From Stegostoma tigrinum (Eukaryota): a stretch of DNA of 64,000 bases. Positions 3,434 to 56,350 of this stretch are shown piece by piece. The DNA lies in assembly GCF_030684315.1 (NCBI RefSeq), contig NC_081394.1:13312658-13376657 (forward strand), written 5' to 3'. Both the position numbers and the translations under genes were made by a program. The notes below the pieces were generated by a model, which had not been told where the DNA came from, ran no database searches, and saw only the letters and a program-made list of their open reading frames with translations. Every line of letters begins with the position of its first letter. Within the stretch, counting starts at the first letter, position 1.

Positions 3434-5169
3434 CTCTGATGTGATTATCTTTTCCTTTTCTGTTACAATTTCCAGCTCACTCACGTGTCTTGAGAACAGC
3501 ATTGCTCCTCACCATTATTCTTGTGCAATGTTATTTCTACGTTGATCTGACCAAGTGTTCTGCATATTTCATATTTGTACGCTTTGTACAAATGTGTTTC
3601 GAGAGAGAAGAAATGAAATCGACCATGTGTGGTCTAATATTTCTGAATCCCTGAATAAATGCAACTTAATGAACATTATCCTATTTCTTTTTATTTATTG
3701 TCATGAAGTTGCAGTACTAATGCTGAACTGATTTTCTTTTTTTTGAATGTTTCATTCATTAAATCATGAACTGTGGGTCATGCAAGTGAGGTCAAAATGT
3801 TATCACCAATCTGTAAGTGCCCAGAAGGCAGACAAGGCTGAATCACAGTTCTTAGTTTCGAGGGTCGCTTTTTGTTCCTGTAAAGGCATTAAGAAACAAA
3901 GTGACTTCTGTTCTTTACTTTCAACATTGGCTTAACGGCCATCATTCAACTCTATTTCCAGACTTTCATTTAACACAATAAAGTCATGATTGTATTTGTG
4001 CCCAGGTAACGATTAATTTGATCTGTGGATTAATACTCTGGATAACAATGCAACAATCTGTTACCTCATCCAAAGATGAATGAAACTTGGTCAGATAAGA
4101 AGTTTTCACTTTCAATTAAATTGTCAATAATTTATCCAGATAATCATTATTCACCGTTCTCTTTTAAGCAAGTAATTCATTTGTCCCTTTTTGTTTACTA
4201 TGGTTGTAAAACTGGTAGGTATTTAAATCTCCAGAAATGGAACCAAGATTCTTACACATATGAAATGCACTGCATATCAAGCCTGTCCCCTACTTTGGTA
4301 CATATTATGGCTTTTTTTAATTTTAAGATTATGAATGGATTTGCAATGGTTTTCCCCAAGTTATTTGGCAAACTTAAACGAAATCATACTGTCAAATTCC
4401 TATCATATGAGCATGCTCACTTTTAACAATTTGATCATGTTTTAAAGCTCATTTACCCCTATTTGCCTGGCAACCAAGGAGAATATCTAATAATTCTTAC
4501 TCACTTGCACGTTCTGCGACTTCAAACAATTTCAACAATTCCTTAATCACTGCTGTTTAACACGTAAAATGTTTATGACTACCGAATTATTTTAGTTAAG
4601 ACATGTCAACAGTGTATTTTTCATTTATTTTCTGCATGTTTTTTCTTCATTTGTCTTTGCCTTCTGATGCTTCATATTATCTCTAATGCTCATCTCTAGC
4701 CGAACTTGTTCCTCGTTTGGAACAAACAAACAGTGTAAGATTGTACTTTTAATTCATTTTGGGCGTGCAGTCTGTAGATTGTCAAGATACAAATATAATT
4801 GTTACATTTAAATTACCACTGATTCCATTTCACCTTACCAGCTGTTTCCTGGAGTTGAATCAGCTGCTTGATCACTGTCAAGAAAGGAAAGCACCATATT
4901 AGCTTGCAATGGAGGCAAATCAAAGTCTGAGAAGAATGTTGAGCAAAGCTATTCGTGAGATATTTCAATTGATAGTGAACTGAAAGAAAAAATATTAGTA
5001 GAAATGCAAACTCGTTACATCAGCACACATCAATGGTGACAGAAACAAAATTGACAATATGTGATTATAAGCTTTTGTTTTGAGTTGGCAAAAAAAGTTG
5101 TGACTCAAGGCTTTACTGAATTTCAATGTTTTACCACACATATAACATTTATTCATATCTGATATAAGT

Positions 5170-6522
5170 TGCAAGCCTACCAACTCCCAGACCTACCTAG
5201 AATATATATCCTCTTACCCATCCTCCTGCAAGATTGACATCCGCTCATCACAATTCTTTCGCCTCCACCACAGTTGCTCCCAGCATGTCCCTTTCCACTC
5301 CCAGACATTCCAGATGCCCTCGTTTTTAAAAGAGCACAATTTTCCTTCCAATGTGATCATAAACACCCTCAAACGCATCTGTCGCGTTTACCACTCCACA
5401 AACCTCACAACCCTCCCCCGCAATGACAACAAATACAGAATTCTTCTTGCCCTCACATGTCACCCAATCAACCTTTGGATCTAACGTATCATTCACCATC
5501 ACTTCGGCCACTTGCAATCTGACCCCACTATCAAGGAGATATAAATTTAATCAAGGAGATATTTTCCTCCCTACCCTAATCTGCCTTCCGGAGGTATCGT
5601 TTTCTCCATGAGTCCCTCGTACACTCCAGACACTCCACTAACCTCAACACCCCGGTACTTTTCCCTGCAACCACAGGAAGTGCTACATATGCCCCTTCAC
5701 CTCCTTCCGCTCCCCCATCCCAGGCCCCAGAAAAACCTTCCACATTAATCAAATGTTCATGTGCATATCTGCTAATGTGGTTTATTGTATCCAGGCTTCC
5801 AGGTATGGCCTTCTCAACATCGGGGAAACCAAGCAGACGCTTGAAGACTGCTTTGTTAAGCATCTGTGCTTGTTTCATCACAAATACCAACACCTCCCAG
5901 TAGCAAACCACTTCAACCCACCACCCCGTCAATCCCTGGACGACATGTCCATTCTGAGCCTCCCCCAGTGCCAAAATAATGCCACCTGAAGGCTGGAGGA
6001 ACAGCACCTCATATTCCACTTGGGGACCCTACAGCCCAAAGGTTACAATGGTCGCTTCATAAACTTCAAAGCCTCCTCACCCCCGACTTCATCTGAAGAC
6101 CCGCCAATCTCGCCTCCGCTTCCTTGACCTGTTCATTTTTACACCCAGAGATCTGTTGCTCCCACCTCACTGACCAACACCCACACCAACTTGCTGCCTA
6201 CTCACCTCTCCTGCCTCTTTGACCTGTCAGTCTTCCCTCCCCCTACCCACTCCTTCCTCTTCAATGACCAATCCCTATCCCAACTCCAAACCTACACTTA
6301 CCTTTACTGGCTCCATGCCCGCCTCCTTGACCCGTGCACCTTCTCCCCACCTATTTGCTCTTCTATCCATTTTCTATCACTTCTTCCCCCGTCTCTGTTT
6401 ATTTCAGAGCAAACTTCCCCTCCTCCATTTCTGAAGAAGGGTCCAGACTCGAAACATCAGCTTTCCTTCTCCTCTAATGCTGCCTGGCCTGCTCTGTTCA
6501 TACAGCTCTACACCTGTTATCT
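5170..6522 (+). mobile_element. Penelope-like element (RT thumb + GIY-YIG endonuclease, decayed) ending in a hammerhead-like terminus
   Basis: KPT..YL..SSHP motif near 5175-5225; ORF 5753..5989 SANVVYCIQASRYGLLNIGETKQTL is GIY-YIG; terminus CTGAAGAAGGGTCCAGACTCGAAACATC at 6431-6458. Confidence 0.9.
6431..6458 (+). ncRNA. Minimal hammerhead-ribozyme-like motif (Penelope-associated)
   Basis: CUGAAGA core, extra A, stem II GGGUC/GACUC, GAAAC, then AUC triplet. Confidence 0.6.
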
Positions 6523-28122: not shown

Positions 28123-28650
28123 TGGTGGTGCCGTGGCACAGTGGTTCACACCGCTGCCTCACAGCACCAGAGGCCCAGGTTCGCTTCCACCCCCAAGAGA
28201 CTGTCTGTCTTCCTCCAGGTGCTCCAGTTTCCTCCCACAGTTCAAAGATGTGCAGATTAGGTGAATTGGCCATGCTAAATTACCCATAGTGTTCAGGGAT
28301 GTTTAGTTGATAATAAAATGTGAGGCTGGATTAACACAACAGGCCCAGCAGCATCTCAGGAGCACAAAGGCTGACGTTTCGGGCCTAGGCGCATCATCAG
28401 AGAGGACTGAAACCTCTCTGATGAAGGGTCTAGGCCTGAAACGTCAGCTTTTGTGCTCCTGAGATGCTGCTGGGCCTGCTGTGTTCATCCAGCCTCACAT
28501 TTTATTATCTTGGATTCTCCAGCATCTGTAGTTCCCATTATCACTGATGTTTAGTTGATTTGGGTTATAAGGGATGGTTCTGCGTGGGATGTTGTGAGGG
28601 CCAGTGTGCACTTGCTGGGCCAAAGGACTTGTTGCCACACTGCCAGGATA
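28123..28650 (+). mobile_element. tRNA-derived V-SINE (HE1-like), interrupted by a palindromic element
   Basis: A-box TGGCACAGTGG (28134), B-box GGTTCGCTTCC (28178), V-domain GTGCTCCAGTTTCCTCCCACAG..AAAGATGTGCAG..ATTGGCCATGCTAAATT, CR1-like tail GGGCCAAAGG. Confidence 0.9.
28312..28545. mobile_element. Palindromic Penelope-derived element with hammerhead-like cores on both strands; 14-bp TSD
   Basis: Arms 28311-28405 and 28413-28507 are inverted repeats around a 7-nt loop; TSD GATGTTTAGTTGAT at 28298-28311 and 28546-28559. Confidence 0.92.
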
Positions 28651-32969: not shown

Positions 32970-35420
32970 AGTGAGAGAGACAGGGTAGTTGTCATGGGGG
33001 ACTTCAACTTTCCAAATATTGACTGGGAACACTATAGTTCAAGTACTATAGATGGGTCATTTTTTGTCCAGTGCGTGCAGGAGGGCTTCCTGACACAGTG
33101 TGTAGATAGGCCAACAAGGGGTGAAGCCACATTAGATTTGGTACTGAGTAATGAGCCCGGCCAGTGTTAGATTTGGAAGTAGGTGAGCACTTTGGTGACA
33201 GCGAACACAATTCTGTTATGTTTACTTTAGTGACGGAAAGGGATAGGTGCATACCACTGGGCAAGAGTTATAACTGGGCGAAAGGCAATTACGATGAGAC
33301 TAGGCAAGATTTAGGGAGCATAGGATGGGGAAGGAAACTGTAGGGCATAGGCATATTAGAAATGTGGAGCTTATTGTGTGTCCTACATAAGTATGTACCC
33401 GCCAGGCAGGGAGGAATCTGTATAGCGTGGGAGCCATGGTTTACAAAGGGGGTGGAATCTCTGGTCAAGACGAAGAAGAAGGCTTATGTTAGGATGAGAT
33501 GTGATGGCTCAGTTGGGGTGCTTGAGGGGTATGAGGTAGCCAGGAAAGACCTAAAGAGGGAGTTCAAAAGAGCCAGGAGGAGACATGAGAAGTTGTTGGT
33601 GTACAGGACCAGGGTTAAACCTAAGGCTTTCTATAGGTATATAAGGAATAAAACAATGACGAAAGTAAGATTAGGGCCAATCAAGGATAGTTTTAGTAAC
33701 TTGTGTGTGGAGTCAGAGGAGATGGGGAAGCACTAAATGAATATTTTTCAACAGTATTCACTCCAGAAAATGACAATGTTGTCGAGAAGAATACTGAGAT
33801 ACAGGGTATTAGACTACGTGGGATTGAGGTTCACCAGGAAGAGGTATTAGAAATCATACAGAGGGTGAACTAGATAAGTCCCCTTGGCCGGATGGGATTT
33901 ATCCTTGGATCCTCTGGGTAGCCATGGAGGAGATTGCTGAGCCTTTGGCATTGATCTTTAACTCGACATTGTCTACAGGAAGAGGGCCAGATGACTGGAG
34001 GATAGCAACTGTGGTTCCCCTGCTCAAGAAGGAGACTAGAGACAACCCTTGTAATTATAGACCAGTGAGCCTTACCTCACTTGTTGGTAATGTGTTGGAA
34101 AAGGTTATAAGGGATAGTATTTATAATCATCTAGAAAAGAATAAATTGATTAGGGATAGTCAGCACAGTTTTGTTAAGGGTAGGTCATACCTCACAAAAC
34201 TTATTGAGTTCTTTGAGAAGGTGACCATATAGGTAGATGAGAGTAAGTCGGTTGATGTGGTGTATATGGATTTCAGCAAGGCATTCTATAAAGTTCCCCA
34301 CAGTAGGCTATTTTACAAAATGCGGAGGAATGGGATTGTGGGAGATATAGCAATTTGGATCGGAAATTGGCGTGCTGAGAGAAGACAGAGGTTGGTAGTT
34401 GATGGGAAATGTTCATCCTGGAGACCAGTTACTAGTGGTGTACCGCAAGGGTCGGTGTTGGGTCCACTGCTGTTTGTCATTTTTATAAATAACCTGGATG
34501 AGGGCGTAGAAGGATGGCTTAGTAAATTTGCAAATGACACTAAGGTCGGTGGAGTTGTGGATAGTGATGAGGGATGCTCTGGTTTGCAGAGTGACACAGG
34601 TAAGCTGCAGAGCTGGGCTGAGAGGTGGCAAATGGAGTTTAATGCAGACAAGTGTGAGGTGATTCACTTTGGTAGGAGTAACCAGAAGGCAAAGTACTGG
34701 GCTAATGTTAAGATCCTTGGTAGTGTAGATGAGCAGAGAGGTCTCGGTGTCCATGTACACAGATCCTTCAAAGTTGGCACCCAGGTTGACAGGGCGGTTA
34801 AGAAGGCATGCAGTGTTTTAGCTTTTATTAATAGAGGGATCGAGTTCCGGAACTAAGAGCTTATGGTGAAGCTGTACAAAACTCTGTTGCAGCCACACTT
34901 GGAGTATTGCGTACAGTTCTGGTCACTGCATTATAAGAAGGATGTGGAAGTTTTGGAAAGGGTGCAGAGGAGATTTACTAGGATGTTGCCTGGTATGGAG
35001 GGAAGGTGTTATGAAGAAAGGCTGAGGGGCTTGAGGCTGTTTTCGTTAGAAAGAAGAAGGTTGAGAGGTGACTTAATTGAAACATATAAAATAATTAGAG
35101 GGTTGGATAGGGTGGATAGGGAGAGCCTTTTTACTAGGATGGTGACGGCGAGCACGAGGGGGCAATAGCTTTAAACTGAGGGGTGAACGATATAGGCAGA
35201 TGTCAGAGGCAGTTTCTTTACTCAGAGAGTAGTAACGGAATGGAACGCTTTGCCTGCAATGGCAGTAGATTCGCCAACCTTAGTTACATTTACGTCGTCA
35301 TTGGATAAGCATATGGACGTACATGGAATAGTGTACGTTAGATGGGCCTCAGATCGGTATGACAGGTCAGCACAACATCGATGGCTGAAGGGCCTGTACT
35401 GTGCTGTAATGTTCTATGTT
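32970..35420 (+). mobile_element. CR1 LINE, relatively young, most of ORF2 plus 3' UTR
   Basis: Endonuclease RVVVMGDFNFPNIDW; [50 protein letters not shown]; few stops or frameshifts; tail GTAATGTTCTATGT. Confidence 0.97.
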
Positions 35421-47700: not shown

Positions 47701-48633
47701 TTATCAAACATTTCACCTCACTCAATTATCTTTCGATCTGTTAAGGCCAACTAAATCTCGACTTCAAGGACCCACCTGCTACTGGCTGTAAAACTAGCAC
47801 TTCATCTCCACAAGAAAAAAAAACATGATTTTTTTTAAAAATGTATTGCCTCCTTCCTGTTTTATCACAGGTTGTGCTACTTTGAAATGTTGTCTAACCA
47901 ATTCATGCACTCTATTTAATTACTTTATTTTTCCTAAAATGTGAAACTTAGAAAAGAAAAGATGTTATCTCTGAACTCTGACTCATAAATTCTTCCTTAA
48001 AAAAAATCAATGTCATTTCACCTCATGTCCACAATTTAATTCATATTTAGCCGATTCAGTTGATTCAATAGATACACTCTGAATTATAAAATGTACAAAG
48101 GGAGCTTGTTTATCATAATCATTTGAATCGTCAAAACTATCAGGCATCGTCATTGTCTTTAAAATTTGCCACCATCGTTCTAATGTTATTTATGATTTCA
48201 GAGTGTTAAGCAGTTAATGTAAATTGTTTAATTCCTAAACAATCCATAACTTCCTTGAAAATCTGATGTAAAATTTGAAAAAAAACAACATCCAAATGCA
48301 TTTCTGTGTGTAATATGTGTCTAGTTTTTTAAAAAAAGAGTAATGCTTTGGCAATCTTCATTCTTAGCCATGATACAGTGTACTGAGATGGCCTGCGGAA
48401 ATCTAGTAGGCACATGCATTATGATCAGCAAATACTGGTTCCCATGTTTTGTTTGAGGTACTGTTTTTTGCATGATCAGTTAAGACTGTTGGAAAAGATT
48501 CACTAAATGTGGGAATGTGTAATAGCTGTGCAGGGTTTATCATTGCCTGAGGTTCCTACATTTACTGACTTTTGTGGCGAGTCCAACAAAATTCAAATAC
48601 ATCTTGTTGCAGCCCTGGCAAAGCTAAAATCTG

Positions 48634-48844
48634 AGATAACAAAGTGTGGAGCTGGATGAACACAGCAGGCCATGCAGCATCTCAGGAGCACAAAAGCTGA
48701 CTTTTCGGTCCTACACCCTCTCTGATGAAGGGCTAAGGCCCGAAACGACAGCTTTGTGCTCCTGAGATGCTGCTTGGCCTGCTGTGTTCATCCAGCTCCA
48801 CACTTTGCTCTCTTGGATTCTCCAGCATCTGCAGTTCCCATTAT
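48634..48844. mobile_element. Palindromic Penelope-derived hammerhead-like element; 15-bp TSD
   Basis: Inverted arms centred at ~48720; CTGATGAAGGGCTAAGGCCCGAAACGAC at 48722; TSD CAAAGCTAAAATCTG at 48619-48633 and 48845-48859. Confidence 0.92.
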
Positions 48845-49039
48845 CAAAGCTAAAATCTGTTTTTTTTTTTCTTTCTTTCTTTTTTCACCCCTTTTGCCTT
48901 GAGTATTCCTTTATCGAACTAGTGCCAAATGTGCTATCTGGAACATTTCCCTTCTATGAGCCATTGGTAACACAACTTGAAGAAATTCTGATTATTCCTC
49001 ATCCAGCTCAAAGTGTGCTGGCTACCACGTCGTCATTGT

Positions 49040-50978: not shown

Positions 50979-52589
50979 AAGTGAGGGGGCTGGATTGAGA
51001 GAGACGTTTTAATTTTCACACCTTGTTTCCAAAAGCTACCCAGCAACTACAGAAGGCTAAACTAAAGACATGGCTCTGTGAAAGATCAACACCACCCCTT
51101 CATACTTGCATGCTGATGTATTGTTCTGACATTTAAAAGAAGGCTTCACAAGCAGTTCAGTTTTTAAATCTTGGGAAAGACTTCTAAATCATTCTGTGTC
51201 AGTATCTGTTCATTAAAAGCGAAACAGTATTCCCAATTTCCAAAAAAAAACTTTTGTCACAAATGTATGCGTTGTGTGCCACCAGCCAGGGTATGGTTGG
51301 GAGTCAGCTAGGTTTGTGGGACTGGAAGAAGGTCCATGGCACCGCAGTTTCCGTTAAACATCCTGTCAAGAGCAGTTAAAGTTGATCACTTCTGGGTTCT
51401 CACCATAACAGTGGGAAAGACACAAGAGATGGAAGACTCACAAGAGATGGATGCAACAGTATCTCTGATTCTGACATAACACAAAGGATAAAGTTAAAGG
51501 TACTGCAAAGAAGCCTGCTGAAAACATATCATGGACATAAATAGAAAAAGTGGCGCCAACGAAGGTCCAATGTACTGGAAAAAAATTACAGCTAATGGCT
51601 CACAGTGCCAAATTACTTTTGTGTGGTGAAAAGGTGATGAACATGCATTATTCTAATGCTCCTGATTACAGAAAATGAAGTTAAATTAGAGCGAGTTCAG
51701 TAACTGGTGAGCTCAAAGCAAGTTTTTCAGGCAGGTTGGGACACATGAAAAGAAAAAAAAGAGTCTTCGCGGAAATCTGGGACGAAGTGAAAGGAATTGA
51801 ATTAAAACTTAAGTTGAAGTGGGTGTCGCAGCTAAGATATCTGAAATCGTCTGTACCCCATCCTGCTAAAAGTGGAGGCGCACGTGGACGGCCGGTGAAA
51901 TGTAAAGCCTTGTAATCAGTACGCACTAGTAAATATGCAACTCTAACCATTCCAGACTTAAAACCATTAATGTCGAGGGATTTGCAGTGACTTAAAGATC
52001 GTAATCGATTTTGCTGTGTTCAGATAAACAACTATTCAAATCATTGATTACCCGCTCAGGGTATTGGCTGGGGAAAGGTAATGCTCAAAATGTATGTGTC
52101 ATGTAGGGATGCTACAGGTGACTTTATTTTTACACCAAACGGAACTTGGTCTGTCGTAGAGGACAAGGGATCAAATTTTAAGTAGATTGTGATGTGCCCA
52201 GAGTTGTGTGGACGCTTGTAAGGTTATTCTTCAAGGTAGAGCATTTGTAATATTTTGCAGAAGCCCTGAAAATGTTGCAGTAGATTTTTTTAAAAATGTT
52301 AAAAATGTGAGTATTTTTAACTCTATAGGAGTTGGGCCATGTAACCGAGGTTGTAGGATTATACAAGGCGTGCATTAAAAATAAAGGCTTCCTAAAAGCC
52401 GTTACACTAAAGAATATATGTCAGGTTTGATTGTTCTTGGGACTGGTGAACTACTATTGGAAGTTTGTGTCTGATCTGGCGAAAGCAAAAACATTGGTTG
52501 CTGTCTAAAGGCCAACCGTAAAAATGAACCTAGGAAAATGACAAGGCTTACCAGCTAATATCGCAAACCTTAGAAATCCTCAGAAGTGT

Positions 52590-52762
52590 ATCAGAGATAA
52601 TGGGAACTGCAGATGCTGGAGAATCCGAGATAACAAAGTGTGAAGCTGGATGAACACAGCAGGAAAGCAGCATCTCAGGAGCACAAAAGCATCAGCTTTT
52701 GTTCTCCTGAGATGTTGCTTGGCCTGCTGTGTTCATCCAGCTTCACACTTTGTTACCTTAGG
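52590..52762. mobile_element. Palindromic Penelope-derived element (tail on left, hammerhead core deleted); 10-bp TSD
   Basis: ATCAGAGATAATGGGAACTGCAGATGCTGG tail, arms meeting at AAAAGCATCAGCTTTT; TSD TCAGAAGTGT at 52580-52589 and 52763-52772. Confidence 0.88.
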
Positions 52763-53040
52763 TCAGAAGTGTTGACAGTTTACAATGCAAATATGACACT
52801 GAAATTGGCATGCAAAGCCTACACTCACGGTGCCAGTGTTGTATTGCTACACATCTTGCCTGAAGAAGAGAATAGACCAATTCATTCTCACCACTGTTTC
52901 TAGTGATGACACAGAAGAAGTACGCTGAAACAGGGAAAGATGGGATTTGATATCGTTTCCGGCATTTGCAAAATCATGTTTTTATTATGGCAGGCACCTG
53001 GTGCTTCTGAAAGTTCACAAGCTGCTAATAACATTTTTAT

Positions 53041-53249
53041 AAAATGTGAGGCTGGATGAACACAGCAGGCCAAGCAGCATCTCAGGAGCACAAAAGCTGA
53101 CGTTTCGGGGCTAGACCCTTCATCAGATGAAGGGTCTAGGCCCGAAACGTCAGCTTTTGTGCTCCTGAGATGCTGCTTGGCCTGCTGTGTTCATCCAGCC
53201 TCACATTTTATTATCTTGGAATCTCCAGCATCTGCAGTTCCCATTATCT
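53041..53249. mobile_element. Near-perfect palindromic Penelope-derived hammerhead-like element; 16-bp TSD
   Basis: About 85-bp arms with one visible mismatch, centred on 53125; TSD CTAATAACATTTTTAT at 53025-53040 and 53250-53265. Confidence 0.95.
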
Positions 53250-53689
53250 CTAATAACATTTTTATGTTTTTTTTTGGCCAGAAGATGTTAATAGCATCAA
53301 GTAACTGTTATTGTATTCTAACTGTTTTCAATGGCATTTTCGAGTAGAAATTGCACCCTTCTGACCAAATATATTTTAAAATGGATTCCTTACGCATACA
53401 AAATAACTGAGCTGTAGCTGAGTAAAAAATTAGTCATCATAAAGTTATGTTTTCTTAAAAAAACAATTTTCACTAAGTAAAGCCACTTTTCTCAAATAAC
53501 TTTTATGACCACTTTGCATTGCTGACCTAATATTGGGAGAGATCAGTTGACAAAGTTACCAAAGTCGCTATAATTTTCTGTCCACCACAGCGTCCTCTTG
53601 TTTACCGTTATCCCTTGCCTTGATTGTCCAGCGCCAGGGTAGTATTTCACACAAATCAGCTTGAATTATGTACCCCAATTATTTGCCAA

Positions 53690-54944: not shown

Positions 54945-56350
54945 GTCCACTACAACCTTGCATTCACTGGAACCATCTCCAATACTCCTCTCTCCTTCCA
55001 AGGCCTCTCTGTTTCCATCTCTGGCAATGACCTGGAAACCGGTATCTATTTCAATTTTACCGACTCGCACAGCTACCTTGAATACATCTCATCTCACCCA
55101 CCTTCCTGCAAGAATGCCATCACCTACTACCAATTCGTTCACTTACGCTACATCTGCTCCCAAGATGAGACATTCCAAACTCAAACATCCCAGATATCCT
55201 CGTTTTTCAAGGACAGCAAATTCCACTCCAGAAGTTTCGAAAATGCCTTCGACCACATCTCACTTGTTTCTCACAATGTATTTCTCACACTCCCTCCCCA
55301 AAAAAGAACACAACAAAAACAGAATCACCCTTTTCCTCACGTACCACCCCACCGACCTTCAGATTCAAGGCATTATTCTCCGCCACTTCTGCCATCTGCA
55401 ATCTGACCCCACTATCAAGGACAGGTTTCCCTCCCCACGCTTACCTGCCTTCCAGAGGAACCACTCTCTGTGGGGCTGTCTTGTCTTTTCCACACTCCCC
55501 ACTAGACCCACCACCCTGACACGTTTTCCTGGAACGGGAGGGAAGCGCTAAACCTGCCCCTACCCCTCCTCCCTCACAACCATATAAGGCCTCATGAAAA
55601 CCTTTCACATTCAACAGATGTTCACCTGCACATCTGCTAACATGGTGTATTGTATTTGCTGTTCTCAATGTGGCCTCCTCTACATCGGCAAAACCAAATG
55701 GAAGCTTGCAGACCACATTGTGGACCACCTACGCTGAGTTCACGACTTTCGACTGCACATCCCAATCATGAAATACTTCAACTCTCTCCCCGACTCCTTG
55801 GACGAGATGTCCATCCTGGGCCTCTTTTAGTGCCACAACGATGCCGCGCGATGGTTGCAGGAACTGCACCTCATATTTCACTTTCGAACCCTGCAGCCCT
55901 ACAGTCTCGAGGTGGACTGCATATGCTTCAAAATCTCCCTGCCCACGCCCCATCCAAAAACCGGCCCAGCTCATCCCCGACTCCTTGACCTGTTCGTTTT
56001 TCTCTCACATATCCGCTTCTCTCACATTACTAACCTACCCCACCCCCATACCATACCTACCAGCCTCATCCCTGCCTCTGTGACCTGTTTGGCTTCGCTA
56101 GACTGACCAAACTACATGTTAACTCTTCAACCACAGCCACATTTACTGGCTCCATTCCCACCTCCTCGACCTGTCCGTCTCCTCTCCACCTATCTGCTGC
56201 TTTATCCGGCTTCCACCTGCCCCCTCACTCTCTCTATTTATTTCAGAATCACCTTCCATTCCCAAATTTGAAGAAGGGTCCAGGTCTAAAACATCAGCTT
56301 TCCTGCTCCTCTGATGCTGTTTGGTCTGCTGTGTTCATCCAGATCTACTC
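54945..56350 (+). mobile_element. Penelope-like element (RT C-terminus + GIY-YIG), decayed
   Basis: FTGTIS...DSHSYLEY.SSHP.SCKNAI; SANMVYCICCSQCGLLYIGKTK (~55634-55698); terminus TGAAGAAGGGTCCAGG..AAACATCAGCTTTCC; homologous to 5170-6522. Confidence 0.92.

What the first reader, a model, noticed from the sequence alone, without database searches (positions are those of the whole stretch)
28298..28559. ~235-bp rod-like hairpin mobile element with hammerhead-ribozyme cores on both strands
Seen: inverted arms around a 7-nt loop, a plus-strand core CTGATGA-AGGGTCTAGGCCT-GAAAC-GTC (28418-28445), a minus-strand core CTGATGA-TGCGCCTAGGCCC-GAAAC-GTC (28373-28400), and a 14-bp TSD showing it integrated as one unit into a V-SINE. 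Established: CUGANGA/GAAA/NUH is the hammerhead core, Penelope-like elements carry minimal hammerheads, and Penelope can insert with inverted termini. Inference: a non-autonomous, retrozyme-like unit whose RNA in either polarity could fold into a long hairpin containing a hammerhead, architecturally reminiscent of viroid-like RNAs. Caveats: helix I looks very short (~2 bp), there is an extra A after the core, and the long hairpin would compete with ribozyme folding.
Basis: partly seen in the sequence, partly recalled or inferred. Interest (0 to 1): 0.8.

Follow-up and report, generated by a model that had tools for sequence, protein, structure and literature searches.

The report
Mirror-image Penelope retrotransposon stump
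The hairpin is a decayed, stump-sized insertion of a very common jumping gene whose ribozyme-bearing end was copied twice, head to head, as it landed, which is a known pattern and not a self-copying viroid-like element.

Summary
The anatomy is confirmed: 97-nt arms, 7-nt loop, two hammerhead (HHR) cores, 14-bp TSD. It is two 5'-truncated copies of the pLTR end of a Penelope-like element (PLE) joined head to head, one with the ~36-nt 'tail' and one without; this layout is published for PLEs. A long copy with RT and GIY-YIG frames and 93-98% identical ends lies in the same genome. It does not propagate as a unit: its junction is unique in 3.2 Gb; 7,519 related palindromes exist and the first 50 show 32 junctions; one recurrent junction has the tail on either arm; pairs run 107-1,449 bp. 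In the unit's RNA the HHR cannot fold in either polarity (stem II probability <1e-10). What is worth keeping is mechanistic: 28 of 30 unselected pairs have exactly one tail, both outer ends share microhomology with the target, and the arms share subfamily alleles. This points to priming from both target strands at two sites of one RNA (about 55%). This scan reported the same kind of palindrome in two other genomes.

The parts
28298..28311 (.). Left target-site duplication (14 bp); its last 3 nt also match the template at the tail-less arm's end
28309..28405 (-). Inverted, tail-less pLTR arm (pLTR positions 1-97), 93% to the long copy L094; six private substitutions
28373..28400 (-). Minimal hammerhead core of the inverted arm; stem II has a C-C mismatch at its second pair and the extra base is changed; decayed
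28406..28412 (.). Junction filler (7-nt loop), found once in the genome; not the master's upstream sequence
28413..28509 (+). Direct pLTR arm (positions 1-97), 96-98% to L094
28418..28445 (+). Minimal type I hammerhead core; closing stem II pair decayed from G-C to G-U at a CpG; nominal cut after 28445
28510..28545 (+). PLE 'tail' (~36 nt) between the two family-wide 3' end positions
   Evidence: tail described in PMC3846280, PMC8557442, PMC11167929
28546..28559 (.). Right target-site duplication; its first 3 nt match the template's continuation past the tail
28124..28642 (+). Host SINE-like repeat interrupted by the insertion (approximate extent; V-SINE label recalled, not tested)

Best explanation
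One dead insertion of an endonuclease-bearing Penelope-like retrotransposon, in which the hammerhead-bearing pLTR end was reverse-transcribed twice and the two short cDNAs were joined head to head during integration. Shown: parentage, one event, new junction at each insertion, no foldable hammerhead in the unit. Inferred (about 55-60%): the PLE enzyme nicks both target strands ~15 bp apart; one 3' end primes at the tail end (pLTR position ~131-134), the other ~36 nt further 5' (position ~91-101) on the same RNA; both cDNAs run toward the RNA 5' end, often stopping just upstream of the hammerhead core; end joining with microhomology or templated filler makes the loop. Two fixed starts plus a preferred stop give the recurrent ~200-235 bp size that looks like a unit.
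For: Parent: L094 holds the same ends (93-98%) around RVT_1 (E 1e-4, below cut-off) and GIY-YIG (E 0.012, below cut-off) frames; Atlas neighbours 0.95-0.96 carry GIY-YIG in 13-26% of members; it has an inverted tailed 5' arm and a 10-bp TSD. Junctions: 1 match genome-wide for this one; 32 in the first 50 of 7,519 (hand count); 27 strings in 30 palindromes from the best-hit loci. The 44-copy junction has the tail on one arm in 20 and on the other in 6 loci and at least five subfamily haplotypes. Pair length 107-1,449 bp. 3' ends bimodal in 69 of 72 unselected arms. One tail in 28 of 30 unselected pairs versus 29 tailed and 34 tail-less unpaired arms (p 3.7e-7). Microhomology 1.86 nt (n 58) and 1.52 nt (n 67) at the two outer ends versus 0.39 control. 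Arms share non-CpG subfamily alleles, e.g. 20 shared, 2 one-sided, 4.2 expected of 96. 3 of 30 pairs are non-overlapping: tail only, plus an inverted body. In vitro a PLE cuts and extends both strands and starts at two sites that define the tail (PMC11167929).
Against: No intermediate was observed; the mechanism rests on genomic footprints. PMC11167929 saw no difference in start site between strands, so the one-tail rule is not explained in vitro. Reading one RNA twice needs strand displacement, not shown. Microhomology at the tail-less end could come from end joining. The recurrent junction is skewed 20:6 in tail side (part of the 20 was tail-selected), so a few source palindromes are not excluded. 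One pair (L160) has arms of different subfamilies. Pfam scores are below curated cut-offs; L094 is broken and rearranged.
Confidence: 0.87

Rival explanations
1. Same PLE origin, but the second arm is made by fold-back self-priming of one cDNA (or of an antisense template, as proposed in PMC3846280) and is cut or joined at the tail-less position.
For: Arms share subfamily alleles; inner ends are correlated (Spearman 0.47, p 0.008, n 30); short self-complementary centres are the commonest junctions (5 of 50).
Against: The tail-less end equals the 3' end of unpaired copies; non-overlapping pairs (3 of 30) cannot be a copy of the first arm; in 7 of 7 long pairs the tail-less arm reaches further 5' than the tailed arm, by up to 773 nt; most junctions are not self-complementary.
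Confidence: 0.25
2. Same PLE origin, two priming events on two separate RNAs or on two pLTR copies of a tandem transcript, held by a protein dimer.
For: Predicted PLE dimer and both-strand extension (PMC11167929); one discordant pair, L160; tandem pLTR units exist (L103); no strand displacement needed.
Against: Independent RNAs predict about half one-tail pairs, observed 28 of 30, unless the dimer is asymmetric; discordance is rare although several subfamilies exist.
Confidence: 0.2
3. One reading: a non-autonomous retrozyme-like or viroid-like unit that self-cleaves in both polarities and spreads as a palindrome.
For: Single TSD; 7 pairs of <=260 bp in 320 kb of random sequence; some junctions recur; the motif class shows compensatory changes across repeat lineages.
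Against: Unique junction; junction diversity and tail-side switching; length continuum; stem II probability 4e-16 (+) and <=2e-11 (-) in the unit and in every prefix tested, because the antisense arm is transcribed first in both polarities; no excess of 5' ends at the cut site (3 of 72 at positions 32-35). The one arm-specific variant shared with best hits is a scattered mutation: 239 versus 19,086 copies, 10 tailed and 10 tail-less of 20.
Confidence: 0.03
4. A MITE-like DNA transposon with long terminal inverted repeats, or two independent neighbouring insertions.
For: Short palindrome with TSD.
Against: Ends are asymmetric and ragged, TSDs vary 10-18 bp (61 of 80 at 14-16), arms are the end of an RT element; one TSD encloses both arms and arms share alleles.
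Confidence: 0.01

Closest known systems
EN+ Penelope-like element insertions with inverted pLTR and tail (PMC3846280; PMC8557442 Fig. 2 legend)
   Same: Head-to-head inverted 5'-truncated copy, 30-40 bp tail at one end only, TSD, palindrome at the junction.
   Different: Both arms are cut down to the ~100-135 nt end, so the whole insertion is a hairpin; copy number is very high (7,519 exact tight-junction loci; roughly 70,000 short pairs by extrapolating 7 in 320 kb).
Minimal hammerheads of metazoan PLEs (PMC4209133)
   Same: Core boxes, extra base before stem II, G10.1-C11.1, palindromic bases in place of helix III; 2-bp helix I as in Drosophila virilis Penelope; dual motifs on opposite strands were noted in Schistosoma (100-700 bp apart).
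   Different: Stem II is short (4 bp plus palindromic loop); cores are 17 nt apart; both are decayed in this copy.
Poseidon element of Anolis, PAc (PMC11167929)
   Same: Two RT start sites bracketing the tail; both strands cut and extended; hammerhead not needed for insertion in vitro.
   Different: This family has a CxxCxxC linker before the GIY-YIG (Neptune/Nematis trait per PMC8557442); that paper does not treat inverted arms.
Non-LTR retrozymes (bioRxiv 10.64898/2026.07.22.740005)
   Same: Non-coding, PLE-derived, type I hammerhead.
   Different: They are head-to-tail tandems; this is head-to-head. A tandem derivative of this family exists elsewhere (L103).
LINE-1 twin priming (recalled, not read here)
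   Same: Second target nick primes internally and inverts part of the insert.
   Different: L1 parts do not overlap; here the arms usually duplicate the same sequence and both starts are fixed.

Membership tests
EN+ Penelope-like element (insertion) | Parent ORF with RT followed by C-terminal GIY-YIG endonuclease | tested here: met
   L094/L095 frames: RVT_1 E 1e-4, GIY-YIG E 0.012-0.044 (both under cut-off), Atlas 0.95-0.96
EN+ Penelope-like element (insertion) | pLTR at both ends, direct or inverted | tested here: met
   L094 has direct and inverted copies 93-98% identical to the arms
EN+ Penelope-like element (insertion) | Optional 30-40 bp tail at one end | tested here: met
   Bimodal 3' ends in 69 of 72 arms; one tail in 28 of 30 pairs
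EN+ Penelope-like element (insertion) | Hammerhead motif in the pLTR | tested here: met
   143 identical intact motifs in fetched DNA, much of it selected on the motif
EN+ Penelope-like element (insertion) | RT phylogeny within PLEs; Neptune clade | not tested
   No tree built; only the CxxCxxC linker was seen
PLE minimal hammerhead | Core nucleotides, extra base, stem II, short helix I | tested here: met
   Family motif intact; across 13 motifs of several repeat lineages 20 cells change on both sides, 0 of 500 shuffles. Rows were picked for core and stem II, so only helix I is unbiased, and it rests on about three lineages
PLE minimal hammerhead | Covariation within this family | tested here: inconclusive
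   8 copies: no change on both sides
PLE minimal hammerhead | Self-cleavage | not testable with these tools
   Needs in vitro assay
Non-LTR retrozyme | Head-to-tail tandem units, each with a hammerhead | tested here: not met
   Head-to-head, single pair
Viroid-like RNA | Hammerhead able to fold in both polarities | tested here: not met
   Computed stem II probability <1e-10 in both polarities
Viroid-like RNA | Fixed unit sequence copied as a whole | tested here: not met
Viroid-like RNA | Circular RNA in cells | not testable with these tools
   No raw RNA reads were offered
MITE | Symmetric fixed termini and fixed-length TSD | tested here: not met
V-SINE (host) | Conserved V domain | not tested
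   No reference sequence obtained; label recalled

The most novel reading that the evidence does not exclude
These palindromes are a genome-scale footprint of an undescribed step in Penelope transposition: ordered priming from both target strands at two fixed sites on one RNA, the leading enzyme starting at the tail-less site and the trailing one at the tail, which either stops where the first began (non-overlapping class) or displaces it (full palindrome). This would explain both the inverted pLTR and the one-ended tail of all EN+ PLEs. A weaker add-on: the preferred stop just upstream of the hammerhead is a capped transcript start.
Probability: 0.5. Interest if true: 0.55.

Novelty: new member of a known kind. 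Interest (0 to 1): 0.25.

Why it matters
As an object it is ordinary: one of tens of thousands of PLE stumps. It matters in two ways. First, how PLEs make inverted pLTRs and a one-ended tail is open (PMC3846280 proposes self-priming; PMC8557442 endonuclease resolution; PMC11167929 leaves later steps unvalidated), and this family gives counts that separate the models and can be tested with the existing in vitro system. Second, it is a caution for viroid-like RNA and microRNA screens: a rod with hammerheads in both polarities can arise passively from PLE integration (Rfam's best sub-threshold hits here were miRNA hairpins).

Tried and rejected
Rfam: nothing at gathering score, no hammerhead at E<=10. 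Expression: no RNA holder listed; two guessed-RNA contig sets did not cover the element and two other runs cover both flanks without spanning it, with no empty-site joint among the 15 of 187 rows shown; none of this bears on expression or polymorphism. An arm-specific variant shared by 11 best-hit loci looked like a master palindrome and was rejected as search selection. Hammerhead cleavage as the source of 5' ends: no peak at the cut site. Capped start: G precedes the motif in 63 of the first 100 of 8,901 places (hand count), but TSD-anchored checks in 30 loci were uninformative and 76,317 of 104,276 arms run through the site, so it stays a hint. One search used a misplaced helix I and is superseded. 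One search's first block failed by an offset error and was redone. No tRNA call in the host SINE. The random sample stayed at 32 stretches (320 kb) plus window and flanks. Literature: 'Penelope + twin priming + inverted + retrotransposon' gave 2 unrelated papers; searches showed no paper on two-strand priming for PLE palindromes; subscription papers and Repbase are not covered, so absence from print is not shown.

Full report
Observation. The region holds two 97-nt arms (28309-28405, 28413-28509; 93% complementary; 7 nt apart) inside an exact 14-bp direct repeat (28298-28311, 28546-28559). It folds as a rod far beyond shuffles (z -20.8). Both hammerhead-like cores are where stated. The right arm has 36 extra nt. 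Other copies of the host SINE run through the site with the 14-mer region once (4 of 20 flank-pair hits at the expected spacing, most others a shorter variant), so this is one insertion. The genome is 3.2 Gb; I take it for a shark from recalled repeat sequence, untested.

Parentage. The arm is a very common repeat: 16 hits in the window, 53 arms in 320 kb of random sequence, 104,276 exact matches of a 21-mer. L094 (4465-7427, minus) has the same ends at 93-98% identity around broken frames with RVT_1 and GIY-YIG similarity, both under Pfam cut-offs, with a CxxCxxC linker; Atlas neighbours are GIY-YIG-containing eukaryotic clusters. It has an inverted tailed arm at its 5' end, a tail-less 3' end and a 10-bp TSD. 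This is the PLE layout in PMC3846280 (passages) and PMC8557442 (passages): inverted 5'-truncated copy, 30-40 bp tail at one end. The finding is that layout with both arms cut down to the pLTR.

Does it spread as a unit? No. Its junction occurs once in the genome at up to 2 mismatches. A gapped pattern finds 7,519 tight palindromes; the first 50 have 32 junctions, the commonest 5 times (hand count). The three other palindromes in the window each differ. A junction with 44 copies has the tail on one arm in 20 and on the other in 6 de-duplicated loci (some of the 20 were selected for a tail) and spans at least five subfamily haplotypes, so it arose repeatedly. Thirty pairs not selected by my queries run from 107 to 1,449 bp. 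One result pointed the other way: 11 best-hit loci shared an arm-specific variant with this copy. Genome-wide it is 239 against 19,086 and lies on 10 tailed and 10 tail-less arms of the first 20: scattered mutation picked by the search.

The hammerhead. The family motif fits the PLE minimal hammerhead of PMC4209133 (parts 1-2 of 4 read): extra base before stem II, G10.1-C11.1, no real helix III, and a 2-bp helix I as in D. virilis. Within the family there is no two-sided change (8 rows). Across 13 motifs from several repeat lineages there are 20 such cells, 0 of 500 shuffles, including helix I, which was not selected for; few independent lineages, so modest support. In this copy both cores are decayed (7 of 97 arm differences). 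In a transcript of the unit the antisense arm is made before the core in either polarity; computed stem II probability is 4e-16 (+) and at most 2e-11 (-) in all prefixes, against 0.5-0.8 for a single arm just past the core. 5' ends show no excess at the cut site (3 of 72 at positions 32-35). In PMC11167929 (parts 1-2 of 4 and passages) the hammerhead needed protein and was dispensable for insertion.

How it forms. Shown: 3' ends fall at two positions (30 at 93-103 and 39 at 131-133 of 72). 28 of 30 unselected pairs have exactly one tail, while unpaired arms are 29 tailed and 34 not (p 3.7e-7). Of 91 one-tail palindromes 80 have an exact direct repeat of 10-18 bp, 61 at 14-16; template microhomology averages 1.86 and 1.52 nt at the two ends against 0.39, and is 3 nt at each end here. 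Arms agree at non-CpG subfamily sites (20, 21, 22, 18 shared against 4-6.5 expected; 2-6 one-sided) but not at CpG sites, so they came from one template and decayed separately. Three of 30 pairs consist of the tail alone plus an inverted body, and in 7 of 7 long pairs the tail-less arm is the longer. Fillers often copy the element itself (10 of 13, 16 of 18, 8 of 9 nt in three cases; this copy's 7-nt filler has only 4). Inferred: both target strands prime, at the two start sites, on one RNA, and the cDNA ends are joined by microhomology-type end joining (that pathway and L1 twin priming are recalled). The Anolis PLE does cut and extend both strands and starts at two sites bracketing the tail, though without a strand difference in start site. 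Fold-back and two-RNA models remain (0.25, 0.2). A modest stop hot spot just upstream of the core (27 of 72 arms at positions -2 to 8; but 73% of arms pass it) sets the typical size; a capped start there is a hint only.

Verdict. A new member of a known kind: a PLE inverted-pLTR insertion, not a retrozyme or viroid-like unit. Genuine retrozyme-like tandems of the family exist elsewhere (L103; definition from bioRxiv 10.64898/2026.07.22.740005, part 1 of 5 and passages; its supplements were not seen and may list this family). Two earlier AI notes on other genomes reached the same reading, looked up after my own was recorded; they are not independent support. Interest 0.25; the priming rule would rate 0.55 if confirmed.

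Noticed in passing
window 48619-48859, 52580-52772, 53025-53265: Three more head-to-head pLTR pairs with TSDs of 15, 10 and 16 bp and different junctions; one has lost both hammerhead cores.
   Followed up: yes
L103 1102-2042 (G000:C3): 304-bp head-to-tail tandem, 3.1 copies, 97% matches: pLTR, tail, ORF start joined to ORF end, with intact hammerheads in the complete units; fits the non-LTR retrozyme definition. L107 looks similar.
   Followed up: partly
L094 4465-7427; L097, L098, L100, L102: A recurring deleted form in which ~136 nt of the ORF start is joined directly to the pLTR; L094 is a mosaic of it and a long ORF piece within one TSD, suggesting template jumps.
   Followed up: partly
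genome-wide: 5' ends cluster just upstream of the hammerhead core and are often preceded by G (63 of 100); the site resembles a polypyrimidine (TCT-type) initiator (motif recalled).
   Followed up: partly
L048, L055, L086, L090, L140; L040, L058, L062: Two other repeat lineages with minimal hammerheads of different stem sequence; parent elements not identified.
   Followed up: partly
L160: Palindrome whose arms carry different subfamily alleles.
   Followed up: no
L011/L027 and L143/L144: Same palindrome with the same flanks at two places: local duplication after insertion.
   Followed up: no
window 5156-6093, 54946-55978, 34233-34856: Older PLE ORF fragments (71-72% to the young family) and a LINE-like RT fragment; the window is repeat-rich with no ORF of 150 aa or more that I recognised as a host gene.
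   Followed up: no
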